Below are positions 22,801 through 31,800 of a DNA stretch of 64,000 bases, in pieces. Source of the DNA: Escherichia coli (GTDB taxonomy: Bacteria; Pseudomonadota; Gammaproteobacteria; Enterobacterales; Enterobacteriaceae); NCBI RefSeq assembly GCF_003019035.1, contig NZ_CP027447.1; one strand, 5' to 3'. Made by a program: the position numbers. Numbering within the stretch: the stretch's first letter is position 1; every line of letters begins with the position of its first letter.

Positions 22801-25800
22801 CGGATATCCGTCTACAAAGCGAAAAATCGCTAACCGACTTCTTTGCACCATTACGCTCTGTCCCGTCGTTGCAGATTGGTCGCCTGGAAGTCATCGACGC
22901 TCGTTTGCAAGGTCCGGACTGGGCGGTGACCGACCTCGATCTCAGCTTGCGCAACATGACCTTCAGTAAAGATGACTGGCAGACACAGGAAGGCAAACTG
23001 TCGATGAACGCCAGCGAGTTTATTTATGGCTCGCTGCATTTATTTGATCCGATTATAAACGCGGAATTTTCCCCGCAGGGCGTAGCACTGCGCCAGTTCA
23101 CCAGCCGCTGGGAAGGGGGCATGGTCAGAACGTCAGGGAACTGGTTGCGTGACGGGAAAATGTTGATCCTCGATGATGCGGCAATTGCCGGACTGGAATA
23201 TACCTTGCCAAAAAACTGGCAACAGTTGTGGATGGAAACGACACCCGGTTGGTTAAACAGCCTGCAACTGAAGAGATTTAGCGCCAGCCGCAATCTGATC
23301 ATTGATATCGACCCTGACTTCCCGTGGCAGCTCACCGCGCTCGATGGTTACGGTGCCAACCTGACGCTGGTTACCGATCATAAATGGGGCGTCTGGAGTG
23401 GTTCGGCGAATCTGAATGCCGCCGCCGCGACATTCAATCGTGTTGATGTTCGTCGCCCATCGCTGGCGCTGACCGCCAACAGCAGCACGGTGAATATCAG
23501 CGAACTGAGTGCATTTACTGAAAAAGGCATTCTGGAAGCCACCGCCAGTGTTTCACAAACGCCACAACGTCAGACCCATATCAGCCTGAATGGACGCGGT
23601 GTGCCGGTGAATATTTTGCAACAGTGGGGATGGCCTGAATTATCGTTGACTGGCGACGGCAATATTCAGCTTACCGCCAGTGGCGATATTCAGGCCAATG
23701 TCCCGCTGAAACCTACGGTTAGCGGGCAATTGCATGCCGTGAATGCCGCAAAGCAGCAAGTGACTCAAACCATGAATGCGGGCGTAGTTTCCAGTGGTGA
23801 AGTTACGTCGACGGAGCCGGTGCAGTAAAAATAAGGACGCTAGCGGATATCAGCGCTAGCGTTCCCCGTTATTAGCGCAAAATTCCATACTCACTGCACA
23901 ATAACCATTTCACCGGTTCATCTTCTTCTATCGCCGGAAAACGTCCTCCCGGCTCAAGAAAATAGTTATCGTGTTGGTCATCATTTACCATCGAGATTTC
24001 CCAGCCGAGAACAAACGCTTTTTCCGCCCAGAAGCGATGATACAGACGCGGCGGCAGGCAAATGCCCTGCCCCGGCTTTAGCACCAGCGTTTCACCAGGT
24101 TTCATGGTACGCCGCTGACCATCAACACTCACGGTAATGACTCGTTGATCATCACAGAGATTGGCTTCGTTGGCCCAGGCCAACTGCATGCATAAGTCTC
24201 CACCGCCCCGATTGAGGATATCTTCCATTTTGTGGGTGTGAAAATGCCAGGGAGTCTGCTGATCTTGTTGGATCTGCAACATTTTCTCAGCATACGGTTT
24301 TGGATATGCCGCCGCCCCCAGCGCGCCGTTGCGCATCGTTAGCAGTGTTAGTCCCGTTTGGTTGAAATCACCACGACCAAAATCGGTGATATCCCAACCG
24401 AGCTGTAAGTCGACCACTTCTTGCCAGTTATCCCGTTCCCGCTGCAGCCAGTCATCCACCGTAAAATAGGCGAACTCTGGCAAACAAACGCGGAAGGTCT
24501 GCGCAATGGCATGTGCTTTATCAATAACATAATTAATTTGTGAACGTTTCATTGGCTTCTCCGTTGCGCATAGCAAGCCAGGCAGCGCCACGCATTCCGC
24601 TACTGTCGCCGTGCTGTGCTTTTACAATGGGAGTGGTGAATTGATCGGTGAAAACCAGTGGAGCAACTTCTGCGTTCAGATCGGTGATAAGCAGTTCCAC
24701 ATTCGAAAGCCCGCCGCCGATCACAATCACGCCAGGGTCAACAACGTTAACGATGGTTGCCAGCATGCGGGCAAGCTGTTGGCGAAAACGTGCCACCTGC
24801 TGCATGGCACAAGCATCACCACGTTGTGCCAGGGTGACAATCGCCGCAGGAGTGAGCAAGTTACCAGTCATCTGTTGATAGCGTTCACTAAAACCGCTGC
24901 CGGAAACAAACGACTCCACGCAGTTGTGTTTGCCGCAATAGCAACTGACTGATGGACCATCTTCCTGCTCCATATAGCCTGGCAACGTGATATGACCGCA
25001 TTCGGCAGCATTTCCCCAGGCCCCTATAAACGGTCGTTGCTTGATGGCAATGCCACCGCCGCAGCCCGTACCAAGCGTAATACCAAATACCACGTCATAA
25101 TCTTGCCCGGCACCGTCGCAAGCTTCTGATAGCGCGAAACAGTTACCATCATTGGCTATCACCACCGGTTGCCCAAGCAATTGCTGCAAATCAGCCTGTA
25201 ACGCATGACCGTTAATCACCTGAATATTCGCGTTTTTAATCAGGCCAGTGAGTGGCGAGATACTGCCGGGTAAGGCGATCCCTGTCAGCATCGGTCGTTG
25301 AACGTCCCGCCTAATCTGCTCGATAAGCGCCACAACGCATGAGACAAATTGTTGATATGTCGACTTTTGCGTCGGGCAGCGGTAACGGCGAATCTCCCAG
25401 CCATGCGCATCCATGACGACGGCGGCGATTTTGGTCCCACCAATATCCAACCCCAGATAGTGCATATCTCGTTCCTTGTTGCGTAAAAGGCGGGTCACCC
25501 CGCCCTTCTGGCTTAGTACAGTGATGCTTTACCGAGCGAACCGAACAGTTTCATTTTGTGGCGAATGACTTCCCGCGCCGCGTTAATCGCATCCGGATAG
25601 ATGACGTTCGGGTCCCACCAGCTCTCTTTAGCGAGAATTTCACGCACTTTCTGGAAATAGGCGTATTTCATATCGCTGGAGATATTGATTTTGCCGACGC
25701 CGAGCGTAACTGATTCAGCAATCTCCGCGTCCGGGTTTGCCGAACCACCGTGTAGCACCAGCGGAATATCAATACGTCCGGCAATGTCGCGCAAAATGTC

Positions 25801-28800: not shown

Positions 28801-31800
28801 ATCAATGATTTTTTGCGGACTCGTCTCAACTAACAATTGTTCTATGATGTCATCATCCGCCAGCGCGCCCGCGACCTGGGAAAGTAAACGGATATGAGTG
28901 GTATTTTGATCTTCAAGACGTACCGCAAATAAAATAATACAGCGCACGCTACTGCCATCCAGCGTTTCCCAGGGAATATCCTGGCGGGTACGGCCAATTG
29001 CCAGCGTAGTATTAATTACCGCAGAAGATTTACCATGCGGGATCGCAATATGATTTTCAAAACCAGTCGAGCCTTCCGCTTCGCGCTGCCAGACATCTTT
29101 AATAAAGGTTTCCCGACAATCGATCGCACCATCTTTTTTGAGAAGATTAGTTAATTCTTCAATCGCCTCCGCTTTATTCGTCGCTTGCATATCTAAAATA
29201 ACGCGATTCGTATTCAGGATTTTTGTTATGTCCATTCGTCATACCTCATAAAATTCTGACATTAAATTTCAACGACCCGAGACGTCGCATGATGTAATTT
29301 TTCCGTAATCACCATTTCAGTGACCCGCTTAATATCGGCATCATTAAAAAAAGCGGTAACATAAGCGACCGGCATAGTGACTGTAGGCAAATTAATGGTC
29401 GAAATAATCAGTTCGATATTGTCAGGCAAAACCTGTGATAAATTCGCTGCTGAAATAACATCAACAATCGTCCATTCAGGAAACGCTCGCAGAATACGGC
29501 TTTTCAGTAGATGCGAAGTTCCGATTCCGGTTGAACAGACCAGTAATACGCGTTTACGGGCAATTTGCCGCTCCATCGCAGCCTGAAAATGAACGGTCAG
29601 GTAACCCACTTCATCCTCGCTCACTGCATTCTCACCCCAGGTTTTAAATACCTGATTCACCACATATTGCGTCAACCGCCAGACATCCGCTAATTCTGCT
29701 TTAATATCTTCCAGCAATGGATTACGGATATGAATGCGATAATTTAGTCGGTTAATCAGCGGCTTAATATGAACCAACAAGCCATCATATAATGCGCTGT
29801 CTTCACTAAAATCGCAGTCCACGATGTCACTGAATACCGTAATTAAACGCCAGGTAATCAGACGCGCTTCATTGCTGGCCTGCATATGTGAAATAATGCT
29901 AACATCTTTTTGTCCATCAATCGCCACACCTGATGAAATGATATATTGATAAATAAACCAGACTTCATCATCGGGCAATGTATGTGCAATTCGTTGTTCT
30001 ATCTTATGAATCATCTGACTGGCAACATTAAAGATATTTTCATCATATTGCCTGGTTTGATCTTCTTCTCTGGATAACGTATTCCCGTGCGTGTTGCGAT
30101 ACATCATAATAAGGATGTGAGTAAAAATGTTAACGTAATAAGGTTCTCCCAAAGACCAACTTAATTCATTTTCCATATCCAGTAACAATGACTGGACAAA
30201 TAACACCTCTTCTTCTCCAAAATAATGGACTAATGCTTTATAACTTCCGGGATCCAGACGTGAATAAACGACACCTTGCGGCTCATTATGGTTAATAATG
30301 CCGTTAATCAGTAATGCCATTGCCTGTCGGACTTGCCCTTCACTACCTTCAATATGCGTACCACTTGGGCTGCGGATCAATGATAACCCCAACGGCGCAA
30401 GCCAGGACTCAATTACTCTCAGGTCATTAACAATAGAGGCTCCGCTGATAAAGTAGCGTTCTGACAATTTACTGATCGACGTTTCATTCGGTGTTTCACT
30501 TAATAACTGCGACGCTATTTTAACGCGCCTGGCATTATTCATTACACCATCAATCTCTTCACATTCTGCTCCCAACAAATGATCAAGATGCAGCAAATCA
30601 GCAATATTCTCCGCGCTTAACATCACACCCGCGCCAGCACGCTTCTCAACATTTATTCTCCATTGCCCCAGCCATTGCTCAAGTAAACGTAAATCACGTT
30701 GAATGGTTTTTTCCGAAACATTTAAATAGCCGGCAATCGTAACAATAGTCGTATATTCCCTTCGAGGTAAAAGGAATCGTAATAATCTGTTTTGTCGCGA
30801 GGTAATCATTTGCATTTTTTACCCTTATCACAGATTAAGAAGCCCCATGAGGAAGAGCTTCAGTTGCCATCTCTGAGGGTAAATATAAAGCAGAATAATT
30901 TCACAACAATACTAAAATATGTCCGTAATCCGGACAGTGATAAAACAAAGCAAGGCGGTTAAGGGATATTTTTCAGCACAGATCACATTTTCGTGATGAA
31001 TAATCGTGATCATGCTCGCAAATACGATGGAAGAAATATTTATTACCAGATGTGAGATTATTTACCGGATACGACACAAAACCATTCGTATCCGGCATTC
31101 TTCAATAGATTACAACGTAATTGTCAGCGCATTCCCTTGAGGAGTCACCACCAGTCCCTGCTCACTTTCAGCCTGCGAACCGCCTTGCAGACCATTTACT
31201 TTCACAATATTGCGCAAGCACAGTGTCCAGTTCTTCGCCTCGCCCGTACCATTCACAGTAATTGTGTTGCCAGTACGCGCCGCTTTCAGGGTGAAAAGAA
31301 CGGAACCATCGGCAGCGGGCACTTCACAGATGGCTTCATGCCCGTCTTGCAGATTAAAGAGCTGGAATGCCGTGCCTTCGTGCCACGCGTAATCGGGACG
31401 TTGATCGTTGTTGCCCAGCGCCAGTAGGGTGCTATCACGCACATAAACGGGCAGACTCAGGAAGCTGTGCTGCTGTTTATGCCAGCGACTACCGTCGAGT
31501 TCATCGTTGTGCCACAGGTGTGTCCAACGACCTTCCGGCAGGTAGAACTGCACATCGCCCGCTTCACTGAACACAGGCGCAACCATCACGTTGTCGCCTA
31601 ACATGTATTGACGGTCAAGGTAATCACAAGCCGGATCGTCCGGAAACTCCATCATCATGGCCCGCATCATCGGCGTACCCCGCGCGTTCGCACGAGCAGC
31701 CTCACGATACAGATACGGCATCATGCGGCATTTCAGTTGCGTGAAGAAGCGCACCACATCACAGGACTCATCATCATAGGCCCACGGCACACGATAAGAT

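What the first reader, a model, noticed from the sequence alone, without database searches (positions are those of the whole stretch)
23837..30900. Seven-gene fructose-like PTS/aldolase/kinase/cupin operon between yicH and yicI (frz-like)
From memory yicH and yicI are adjacent in K-12. Here about 7 kb of minus-strand genes lies between them: a PRD/Mga-like regulator, EIIA, EIIB, EIIC, two class II aldolase paralogues, a ROK kinase and a cupin, tightly packed with good ribosome-binding sites. Composition and location match my recollection of the frz operon described in extraintestinal pathogenic (phylogroup B2) E. coli as a fitness determinant. Its substrate, to my knowledge, has not been defined.
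Basis: partly seen in the sequence, partly recalled or inferred. Interest (0 to 1): 0.6.

Follow-up and report, generated by a model that had tools for sequence, protein, structure and literature searches.

The report
The known frz sugar operon
This is the already described frz operon of extraintestinal pathogenic E. coli, an eight-gene sugar-uptake and breakdown unit between yicH and yicI; it is intact here, and the sugar it handles is still unidentified.

Summary
They lie on the minus strand at 23872-30815, each with a ribosome-binding site, ending in an intrinsic terminator.

The frz interpretation is supported.
- The stretch is collinear and 99.06% identical over 8 kb with the frz locus of strain BEN2908, where frz was defined.
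- All eight proteins have the same lengths as in BEN2908, with 0-3 substitutions each.
- Published frz PCR primers give the expected 843-bp product in silico.
- K-12 MG1655 has 8 bp at this junction.
- 1606 of 5426 complete E. coli genomes carry the cluster. These include the B2 strains that could be named and at least one phylogroup D commensal.

New here:
- The same operon, with about 220 nt of conserved upstream sequence, sits in the same yicI/yicH slot in Citrobacter, the Klebsiella oxytoca group, Superficieibacter and Phytobacter. It is as diverged there as its flanks, so it is old and not a mobile island.
- Several genera carry a seven-gene form without the ROK kinase.
- Both aldolases keep their zinc and catalytic residues. 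Both lack the arginine that FbaA, GatY and KbaY have at the DPR motif, as does the ketose-1-phosphate aldolase YdjI.

The substrate remains unknown. The finding is already known and of low to moderate interest.

The parts
23837..23862 (-). Intrinsic terminator of the operon. It faces yicH, so it also ends the convergent yicH transcript.
   Evidence: Nine-pair stem with 6 G-C pairs followed by CCTTATTTTT. It lies 10 nt after the cupin stop codon.
23872..24552 (-). Gene 8: cupin sugar isomerase of the D-lyxose/D-mannose family, 226 aa.
   Evidence: NCBIfam NF051472 scores 272 bits against a cut-off of 350. PDB 3KMH/3MPB (E. coli O157 D-lyxose isomerase) matches at E=4e-64, with the H-x-H...E...H motif aligned. 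H103, H105 and H172 are invariant in 29 orthologues. Three aa differ from BEN2908.
24533..25465 (-). Gene 7: ROK-family sugar kinase, 310 aa. It overlaps gene 8 by 20 nt.
   Evidence: The closest NCBIfam model is fructokinase Mak, NF007108, at 317 bits against a cut-off of 443. PDB NagK-type kinases match at E=3e-55. D7, D106 and the Cys cluster C175/C177/C182 are invariant. The gene is absent from the otherwise intact operon in several genera.
25513..26373 (-). Gene 6: class II (zinc) aldolase, 286 aa.
   Evidence: NF006042 scores 526 bits against a cut-off of 405. Solved FBP aldolases match at E=4e-58. The Asp-His and two further His ligands are conserved. WWDPN stands where bisphosphate aldolases have DPR, and this is invariant in 30 orthologues. 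The protein is identical to that of BEN2908.
26454..27305 (-). Gene 5: second class II aldolase paralogue, 283 aa, 32% identical to gene 6.
   Evidence: It falls below every NCBIfam cut-off; the best is 210 bits. PDB aldolases match at E=1e-41, with alignments mostly ending near residue 234. D81, H82, H178 and H208 are conserved. There is no DPR motif.
27317..28408 (-). Gene 4: PTS EIIC, fructose family, 363 aa.
   Evidence: TIGR01427 scores 312 bits against a cut-off of 158. It is 95-96% identical in protein to the Citrobacter and Raoultella orthologues.
28433..28747 (-). Gene 3: PTS EIIB, fructose type, 104 aa.
   Evidence: TIGR00829 scores 100 bits against a cut-off of 77. C5 and C9 (ACTAGIAHT) are invariant.
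28765..29235 (-). Gene 2: PTS EIIA, fructose/mannitol type, 156 aa.
   Evidence: TIGR00848 scores 127 bits against a cut-off of 104. H62 and H67 (IAIPHG) are invariant.
29262..30815 (-). Gene 1: frzR, a PRD-containing transcription activator, 517 aa.
   Evidence: Pfam finds HTH_11 at 7-63, Mga at 100-169, PRD at 209-294, PRD at 324-413 and PTS_IIB at 422-498. H233, H278, H349 and C427 are invariant in 32 orthologues. The frz PCR amplicon lies inside this gene.
30816..31064 (-). Promoter, operator and leader region of the operon. About 220 nt are conserved across genera. Predicted elements:
- -10 TATATT at 30882-30887
- -35 TTGTTG at 30904-30909
- inverted repeat TGTCC-N7-GGACA at 30920-30936
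- TGTGATCTG half-site near 30979-30987
- CRP-like site CGTGA-N6-TCGCA at 31005-31020
   Evidence: An alignment of 32 upstream regions shows the same blocks in Escherichia, Citrobacter, Klebsiella, Raoultella, Kosakonia, Phytobacter, Buttiauxella and Izhakiella, whatever the genomic context. The sequence was read. Assignment of the elements is by inspection. The generic promoter scan did not list this site.
31065..31095 (-). Hairpin after the yicI stop codon, the counterpart of the K-12 yicH/yicI intergenic hairpin. It marks the right edge of the extra DNA.
   Evidence: Homology to K-12 and E. fergusonii resumes here.

Best explanation
This is the frz operon of extraintestinal pathogenic E. coli. 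It is one transcription unit made up of a promoter/operator region, eight genes and a terminator.

Shown here:
- Gene identity, order and intactness.
- Near-identity to the BEN2908 type locus.
- Intact phosphorylation-site and catalytic residues in all the enzymes.
- A conserved upstream control region.

Inferred working:
- FrzR is a DNA-binding activator of the MtlR/LicR/ManR kind, with two helix-turn-helix domains, two PRDs and an EIIB-like domain. It probably binds the conserved inverted repeat just upstream of a weak -35, helped by CRP.
- By analogy with those regulators, FrzR would be switched by PTS phosphorylation: HPr on a PRD histidine, and the Frz EIIA/EIIB on Cys427. The operon would then turn on only when its sugar is being transported.
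- The fructose-family EIIA-EIIB-EIIC takes up and phosphorylates the sugar.
- The two zinc aldolases cleave the phosphorylated ketose to dihydroxyacetone phosphate plus an aldehyde or aldose.
- The cupin isomerase and the Mak-like ROK kinase form an accessory branch. It turns a free manno- or lyxo-configured aldose into a ketose and phosphorylates it.

My favoured version, at about 40%, is that the aldolases act on a ketose-1-phosphate made directly by the PTS, not on a 1,6-bisphosphate. The sugar itself is not identified.

The reported phenotypes come from the literature, not from this work. They are fitness in late stationary phase, under low oxygen, in serum and in the gut, and a bias of the type 1 fimbrial switch towards ON.
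For: Identity as frz:
- 99.06% over 8003 bp, and 0-3 aa differences per protein, against BEN2908.
- In-silico 843-bp frz amplicon.
- Position between yicH and yicI, as published.

Single transcription unit:
- Short gaps, a ribosome-binding site before every gene, and a terminator.

PTS:
- All three domains score above the TIGRFAM cut-offs.
- The EIIA His and EIIB Cys are invariant.

Regulator:
- HTH, Mga, two PRD and EIIB-like domains; no CAT RNA-binding domain was reported.
- His233, His278, His349 and Cys427 are invariant.
- The conserved inverted repeat and CRP-like site travel with the operon in every genus.

Aldolases:
- Zinc and catalytic residues are conserved.
- The Arg of the DPR motif, present in FbaA, GatY, KbaY and five solved FBP aldolases, is Asn in one paralogue (invariant in 30 orthologues) and missing in the other.
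- YdjI also lacks it. RefSeq annotates YdjI as an octuluronate-1-phosphate aldolase.

Accessory status of the kinase:
- Operons that are otherwise intact lack the ROK gene in Citrobacter youngae, C. werkmanii, C. portucalensis, Superficieibacter and Buttiauxella.

Cupin paired with a kinase for free aldoses:
- GH38 mannosidase, LyxI and PfkB kinase lie together in a spirochaete.
- MFS transporter, mutarotase, LyxI, an Arg-less aldolase, PfkB kinase and ADH lie together in Salmonella.

Phenotypes:
- PMC12928451, PMC8777976 and PMC6727828.
Against: - No substrate, transcript or enzyme activity was measured here, and the original paper (Rouquet 2009) could not be read.
- The role of the missing Arg rests on my knowledge of E. 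coli FbaA Arg331. I could not find a citable source in the library.
- If the aldolases cleave a hexulose-1-phosphate, the product is a triose. The cupin and the kinase would then have no obvious substrate.
- A bisphosphate route that uses host FruK or PfkA is not excluded.
- The promoter elements were assigned by eye, and the generic scan did not pick them up.
- Regulation by phosphorylation is an analogy with Firmicute regulators. FrzR also lacks their C-terminal EIIA-like domain.
Confidence: 0.8

Rival explanations
1. This is a classical ketohexose pathway of the tagatose, psicose or sorbose kind. The PTS makes a ketohexose-1-phosphate. A kinase, either the ROK enzyme or host FruK/PfkA, adds the second phosphate. 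The two aldolases cleave the 1,6-bisphosphate to DHAP and glyceraldehyde-3-phosphate. The cupin lets the matching aldose (mannose or talose) enter the same route.
For: - RefSeq names the two enzymes ketose-bisphosphate aldolase and class II fructose-bisphosphate aldolase.
- The closest solved structures are FBP and tagatose-bisphosphate aldolases.
- Fructose-family PTS systems typically give 1-phosphates (background knowledge).
- ROK kinases phosphorylate the terminal hydroxyl of hexoses (background knowledge).
Against: - Both aldolases lack the Arg of the DPR motif, which FbaA, GatY and KbaY all keep.
- Many intact operons have no ROK kinase, so it cannot be an obligatory step.
- A ROK kinase acting on a sugar phosphate has no precedent that I know of.
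Confidence: 0.3
2. The operon works mainly as a sensor. The Frz PTS and FrzR report the availability of a host-derived sugar and change expression of other genes, including the type 1 fimbrial switch and possibly yicJI. Carbon flux through the enzymes would be of minor importance.
For: - The published phenotypes are fitness under stress and a shift of the fim switch. No growth phenotype on a defined sugar is reported (PMC8777976, PMC6727828).
- FrzR carries PTS-controlled domains.
- frz lies directly downstream of yicJI on the same strand, separated only by a hairpin without a T-run.
Against: - Four catabolic enzymes keep invariant catalytic residues across at least 10 genera.
- The operon keeps its own regulator and operator wherever it sits, including genomes without yicJI next to it. 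This is what is expected of a self-contained catabolic unit.
Confidence: 0.15
3. The cluster is a genomic island acquired horizontally by phylogroup B2, a pathogen-specific gain.
For: - It is absent from K-12, from the A, B1, C and E strains tabulated, and from E. fergusonii, whose empty site has the same structure as that of K-12.
- GC content steps inside the operon: 41-44% for frzR, EIIA and EIIB against 50-56% for the other genes.
- Citrobacter amalonaticus holds a different sugar module in the same slot.
Against: - There is no integrase, transposase, tRNA or flanking repeat.
- The same operon lies in the same yicI/yicH slot in at least 10 Citrobacter species or isolates, two Klebsiella species, Superficieibacter, Phytobacter ursingii and an Escherichia cryptic-lineage strain.
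- Between E. coli and Citrobacter the operon genes are 72-83% identical in nucleotides, and the flanks are 76-80%.
- A phylogroup D strain carries a 98.1% identical copy.
- The GC step is shared by Citrobacter and Raoultella, so it predates E. coli.
Confidence: 0.25

Closest known systems
frz operon of avian ExPEC strain BEN2908 (Rouquet et al. 2009, J Bacteriol 191:4427; genome NZ_LR740776.1)
   Same: It has the same position between yicH and yicI and the same eight genes in the same order. Identity is 99.06% over 8 kb. The proteins have equal lengths with 0-3 substitutions each. The diagnostic PCR product is the same.
   Different: Only allelic differences. The window matches a commensal human isolate, SCU-301, at 100%.
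gat and aga/kba tagatose-bisphosphate branches of E. coli K-12 (GatYZ, KbaYZ)
   Same: A PTS is linked to a class II zinc aldolase of the same Pfam family. The aldolase sequences are about 32-35% identical.
   Different: - The PTS there is of the galactitol or mannose family, not the fructose family.
- The partner subunit GatZ/KbaZ belongs to a different family. frz has two paralogous catalytic-type aldolases instead.
- GatY and KbaY keep the DPR arginine, and the Frz aldolases do not.
- Those clusters have no cupin or ROK gene.
ydj cluster of E. coli K-12 (YdjH kinase, YdjI aldolase)
   Same: YdjI is a class II aldolase of the same family that also lacks the DPR arginine. RefSeq annotates it as acting on a ketose-1-phosphate.
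   Different: - Uptake is by MFS transporters and phosphorylation by a PfkB kinase, not by a PTS.
- The regulator is of the DeoR type.
- The cluster contains dehydrogenases and no cupin isomerase.
Salmonella LyxI cluster (locus L039): MFS transporter, mutarotase, LyxI, aldolase, PfkB kinase, ADH, DeoR regulator
   Same: A LyxI-family cupin (62% identical) is paired with a class II aldolase that lacks the arginine; it has DPE at that position.
   Different: It has no PTS and no PRD regulator. The kinase is of the PfkB family, not ROK. It lies next to an integrase.
MtlR/LicR/ManR-type PRD activators of Firmicutes
   Same: The N-terminal HTH and Mga domains, two PRDs and an EIIB(Gat)-like domain with a conserved cysteine are all present.
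   Different: FrzR ends after the EIIB-like domain and has no C-terminal EIIA-like domain. Control by phosphorylation has not been tested.

Membership tests
frz operon (as defined in BEN2908) | Located between yicH and yicI | tested here: met
   for the window. for BEN2908.
frz operon (as defined in BEN2908) | Gene content and order: PRD/Mga activator, EIIA, EIIB, EIIC, two class II aldolases, ROK kinase, cupin | tested here: met
   The gene table of the BEN2908 record is the same.
frz operon (as defined in BEN2908) | Sequence identity to the type locus | tested here: met
   99.06% over 8003 bp, with 0-3 aa differences per protein.
frz operon (as defined in BEN2908) | Positive with the published frz PCR (843 bp) | tested here: met
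   Both primers match exactly, 843 bp apart.
frz operon (as defined in BEN2908) | Fitness and type 1 fimbria phenotypes | not testable with these tools
   Known only from the literature.
Fructose-family PTS (EIIA, EIIB and EIIC as separate proteins) | Domain models above curated cut-offs, and phosphorylation-site His and Cys present | tested here: met
   TIGR00848, TIGR00829 and TIGR01427 all score above their cut-offs. H67 and C9 are invariant. No equivalog model is reached, so the sugar specificity remains open.
BglG/SacY-type transcription antiterminator (the RefSeq product name) | N-terminal CAT RNA-binding domain, with a RAT/terminator element in the leader | tested here: not met
   The N-terminus is HTH_11 plus Mga, and no CAT domain is reported. 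Only the PRD part matches LicT/GlcT, far below the cut-offs. The conserved hairpin-like repeat keeps its arms without compensatory changes.
MtlR/LicR/ManR-type PRD activator | HTH, Mga, PRD1, PRD2 and EIIB-like domains | tested here: met
.
MtlR/LicR/ManR-type PRD activator | C-terminal EIIA-like domain | tested here: not met
   The protein ends at residue 517, just after the EIIB-like domain.
Class II ketose-1,6-bisphosphate aldolase | Zinc ligands (three His) and the catalytic Asp and Glu | tested here: met
   D81, H82, E131, E133, H178 and H208 are invariant in the alignment with YdjI, GatY, KbaY and FbaA.
Class II ketose-1,6-bisphosphate aldolase | Arginine of the C-terminal DPR motif (FbaA Arg331). 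From my own knowledge, this residue binds the distal phosphate. | tested here: not met
   One paralogue has DPN and the other has no motif. This is conserved across the orthologues.
D-lyxose/D-mannose isomerase (cupin, PF07385) | Family model hit and metal-binding residues | tested here: inconclusive
   PF07385 is recorded for the homologues. The match to 3KMH is E=4e-64 with the motif conserved. The NCBIfam equivalog scores 272 against a cut-off of 350. It is therefore a paralogue whose substrate may differ.
ROK sugar kinase | ATP-binding DxGxT, the catalytic Asp and the zinc Cys motif | tested here: met
   The nearest equivalog, Mak, scores below its cut-off (317 against 443), so the specificity is open.
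Mobile genomic island | Integrase or transposase, a tRNA target, and flanking direct repeats | tested here: not met
   None is present in the annotation or the repeat search. The junctions are clean.

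The most novel reading that the evidence does not exclude
Frz may not be a fructose-like bisphosphate pathway at all. It could be a PTS-fed route in which arginine-less class II aldolases cleave a ketose-1-phosphate, possibly a sugar of seven to nine carbons or another unusual manno-configured sugar from the host or diet. That cleavage would release a free aldose, which the cupin isomerase and the ROK kinase then salvage. On this reading the locus is an old Enterobacteriaceae trait that most E. 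coli lineages lost, rather than a virulence island that ExPEC gained.
Probability: 0.25. Interest if true: 0.55.

Novelty: already known. Interest (0 to 1): 0.25.

Why it matters
frz is used as a marker of virulent avian and human extraintestinal E. coli. It has been linked to gut and serum fitness and to type 1 fimbria expression. Its sugar has nevertheless remained unnamed since 2009.

Three observations from this work narrow the experiments needed to find the substrate:
- The aldolases look like ketose-1-phosphate enzymes.
- The ROK kinase is dispensable in related operons.
- The cupin family elsewhere sits next to enzymes that handle free mannose.

The conserved position of the operon in other genera also changes how its association with pathogenic lineages should be read. 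It may reflect retention of an old trait, not acquisition of a new one.

Tried and rejected
Papers that could not be read:
- Rouquet 2009, the original frz paper, is not held under its DOI or its PMC id.
- The YdjI paper and a class II aldolase mechanism paper are not held.

Literature searches that found nothing useful:
- Searches for a frz substrate, for FrzR or yicJI links, and for z5688.
- A search for a source on FbaA Arg331.
- Two papers that mention yicI proved irrelevant.

Sequence analyses that came back negative:
- Flanking direct or inverted repeats at the insert edges: none.
- Rfam families in 22000-36000: only tRNA-Sec.
- The generic promoter scan found fewer sites than shuffled sequence gives, and none in the upstream region.

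Readings considered and rejected:
- An antiterminator mechanism, as the RefSeq product name suggests. There is no CAT domain.
- A degenerate, non-catalytic second aldolase on the GatZ model. Both paralogues keep all catalytic residues.

Not done:
- I did not assign phylogroups to the 281 genomes whose copies are 95-99% identical. The tools give no per-genome typing.

Full report
**What is in the sequence**

Between yicH (22119-23828, + strand) and yicI (31110-33428, - strand) the minus strand carries eight back-to-back ORFs. RefSeq annotates the same eight in strain SCU-301, a rectal isolate from a healthy student that is 100% identical to the window. In order of transcription they are:

| Gene | Product | Coordinates | Size |
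|---|---|---|---|
| 1 | PRD regulator (frzR) | 29262-30815 | 517 aa |
| 2 | EIIA | 28765-29235 | 156 aa |
| 3 | EIIB | 28433-28747 | 104 aa |
| 4 | EIIC | 27317-28408 | 363 aa |
| 5 | class II aldolase | 26454-27305 | 283 aa |
| 6 | class II aldolase | 25513-26373 | 286 aa |
| 7 | ROK kinase | 24533-25465 | 310 aa |
| 8 | cupin | 23872-24552 | 226 aa |

The gaps between genes run from 11 to 80 nt, and the last two genes overlap by 20 nt. Each start codon follows a GGAG/AAGG-type ribosome-binding site. A hairpin plus T-run at 23837-23862 follows the last stop codon. The count is not: there are eight genes, not seven.

**Is it frz?**

Yes. Four lines of evidence agree.
- The BEN2908 genome paper lists the frz operon (7227 bp) as the region between yicH and yicI (PMC12928451).
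- I fetched that stretch of the BEN2908 chromosome. It has the same eight genes.
- Window 23400-31400 aligns to it without rearrangement at 99.06% identity over 8003 bp. All eight proteins have the same length, with 0-3 substitutions each.
- The published frz PCR primers (PMC6238794) match the window exactly at 30391-30410 and 29568-29587. These sites are 843 bp apart, the published product size.

**Junction with K-12 and distribution**

In MG1655, yicH and yicI are 52 bp apart. Alignment shows that homology to the window stops at about 23832 and resumes at about 31065. The window therefore has about 7232 bp where K-12 has 8 bp.

Of 5426 complete E. coli genomes, 1606 carry the cluster, nearly all in full length. 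Copies at 99% identity or above number 1326, and 281 fall between 95% and 99%. The remaining genomes show the short empty junction.

Carriers that can be named include CFT073, UM146, ATCC 25922 and E2348/69. Table S1 of PMC12928451 shows frz in every B2 strain compared. It also shows a 98.14% identical copy in the commensal SCU-397 (ST38, phylogroup D). It shows no copy in the A, B1, C and E strains.

**Age and origin**

The edges carry no integrase, transposase, tRNA or flanking repeat.

The same operon lies between yicI and yicH in the following:
- at least ten Citrobacter species or isolates
- Klebsiella grimontii and K. michiganensis
- Superficieibacter
- Phytobacter ursingii
- an Escherichia cryptic-lineage strain

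It lies in other contexts in Raoultella, Kosakonia, Buttiauxella and Izhakiella.

Between E. coli and Citrobacter, the operon genes are 72-83% identical in nucleotides. The flanks are 80% (yicI) and 76% (yicH) identical. This fits long residence rather than recent transfer.

Two observations point the other way. E. fergusonii has an empty site with the same structure as K-12. C. amalonaticus holds a different sugar module in the same slot: a PTS EIICB, a GH4 hydrolase, an RpiR regulator and an MFS transporter. Presence and absence both look old, and the slot is a place where sugar modules are exchanged. I could not polarise the event. A simple B2-specific acquisition is the less likely reading.

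**Regulation**

FrzR has HTH_11, Mga, two PRD domains and an EIIB-like domain. It has no C-terminal EIIA-like domain, and no CAT RNA-binding domain was reported. It is therefore a DNA-binding activator of the MtlR/LicR/ManR kind. It is not an antiterminator, despite its RefSeq product name. His233, His278, His349 and Cys427 are invariant in 32 orthologues.

About 220 nt upstream of frzR are conserved in all genera, whatever the surrounding genes. The conserved blocks include:
- a CRP-like site at 31005-31020
- a TGTGATCTG half-site
- an inverted repeat TGTCC-N7-GGACA at 30920-30936, whose arms never vary while its centre does
- a plausible weak promoter, TTGTTG-16 nt-TATATT

I infer that FrzR binds the repeat and activates the promoter together with CRP, under PTS phosphorylation control. 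None of this was tested here.

**Enzymes**

- The three PTS proteins score above the fructose-family cut-offs but reach no equivalog model. Their phosphorylation-site His and Cys are invariant.
- The kinase is closest to the manno/fructokinase Mak, but below that model's cut-off.
- The cupin is closest to the Gram-negative D-lyxose/D-mannose isomerase, also below the cut-off. It matches the O157 enzyme 3KMH/3MPB at E=4e-64 with the metal motif intact.
- Both aldolases keep the zinc ligands and the catalytic Asp and Glu.

At the C-terminal DPR motif, five solved FBP aldolases have arginine, as do K-12 FbaA, GatY and KbaY. One Frz paralogue has DPN there, invariant in 30 orthologues. The other has no motif at all. 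YdjI also lacks the arginine, and RefSeq annotates it as an octuluronate-1-phosphate aldolase. From my own knowledge, this arginine (Arg331 in FbaA) binds the distal phosphate. I could not find a source for this in the library.

**The kinase and cupin as an accessory branch**

The ROK gene is missing from otherwise intact operons in three Citrobacter species, Superficieibacter and Buttiauxella. It is an internally deleted remnant in Izhakiella. The conserved core is thus the regulator, the PTS and the two aldolases.

Elsewhere the cupin family sits next to enzymes that handle free sugars:
- a GH38 alpha-mannosidase, LyxI and a PfkB kinase in a spirochaete
- an MFS transporter, mutarotase, LyxI, an aldolase without the arginine, a PfkB kinase and an ADH in Salmonella

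**Most likely working**

The PTS imports and phosphorylates a sugar. The aldolases cleave the phosphorylated ketose to DHAP plus an aldehyde or aldose. The cupin and the kinase convert a free manno- or lyxo-configured aldose to a ketose phosphate.

I favour a ketose-1-phosphate substrate at about 40%, against the classical 1,6-bisphosphate route at about 30%. The weakness of the favoured version is this: a hexulose-1-phosphate would yield a triose, which gives the cupin nothing to act on. A longer or otherwise unusual sugar would solve that, but this is speculation.

**What is already known**

The operon itself, its position, its link with virulent lineages and its phenotypes are all published. 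No paper in the library names its sugar.

**Verdict**

The finding is a correct recognition of a known operon. What is added here is the wider synteny, the seven-gene forms that lack the kinase, the conserved control region and the missing aldolase arginine. Together these make the substrate question more testable.

Noticed in passing
window 28433-30815 versus 23872-28408: GC content steps inside the operon. frzR, EIIA and EIIB are 41-44% GC (GC3 34-41%). The other five genes are 50-56% GC. The same step is seen in the Citrobacter and Raoultella copies, so it predates E. coli and may mark a composite origin.
   Followed up: partly
L010, L011, L013, L020, L030 and L032 (about 11790-11845); L033 11844-12314: Seven-gene forms of the operon lack the ROK kinase in Citrobacter youngae, C. 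werkmanii, C. portucalensis, Superficieibacter and Buttiauxella. Izhakiella has an internally deleted kinase remnant. Kosakonia oryziphila (L021) has a truncated kinase and no detectable cupin.
   Followed up: partly
L042 10930-15899 (Citrobacter amalonaticus): The yicH/yicI slot holds a different sugar module here: a PTS EIICB, a GH4 phospho-glycosidase, an RpiR regulator and an MFS transporter. The slot appears to be a general exchange point for carbohydrate gene sets.
   Followed up: no
L041 10711-10761 (Escherichia fergusonii): The empty yicH/yicI junction is almost base-for-base the same as in K-12, including the 8-bp filler and the hairpin. The empty allele is therefore as old as the split between the two species, or has moved between them.
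   Followed up: partly
L010, L012, L013, L015 and L016, leader upstream of frzR: In several Citrobacter species an insertion of about 130-200 nt interrupts the frzR leader. From memory it resembles an ERIC-type repeat (it contains GAATCCCCT...GTGACNGGGGTGAGCG). I did not test this against a reference.
   Followed up: no
window 35113-35207: The tRNA-Sec gene selC is a classic island insertion site. Here it has only a rhuM fragment beside it. BEN2908 is reported to carry the 49-kb AGI-3 island at this position.
   Followed up: no
window about 39687-46670 and 51199-59291: Between yicS and nepI there is a second accessory region absent from K-12. It holds type III secretion translocon, tip and chaperone genes, the HilA-like regulator eilA, and a giant inverse autotransporter (iatC) annotated as frameshifted.
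   Followed up: no
window about 60956-61263: A frameshifted RelE/ParE-type toxin gene lies next to an intact helix-turn-helix gene, between yicN and nepI.
   Followed up: no
E. coli genome search: One of the 1611 places matching the frz interior lies on a plasmid record. One genome (HS-02) keeps only a 252-bp piece of frzR.
   Followed up: no
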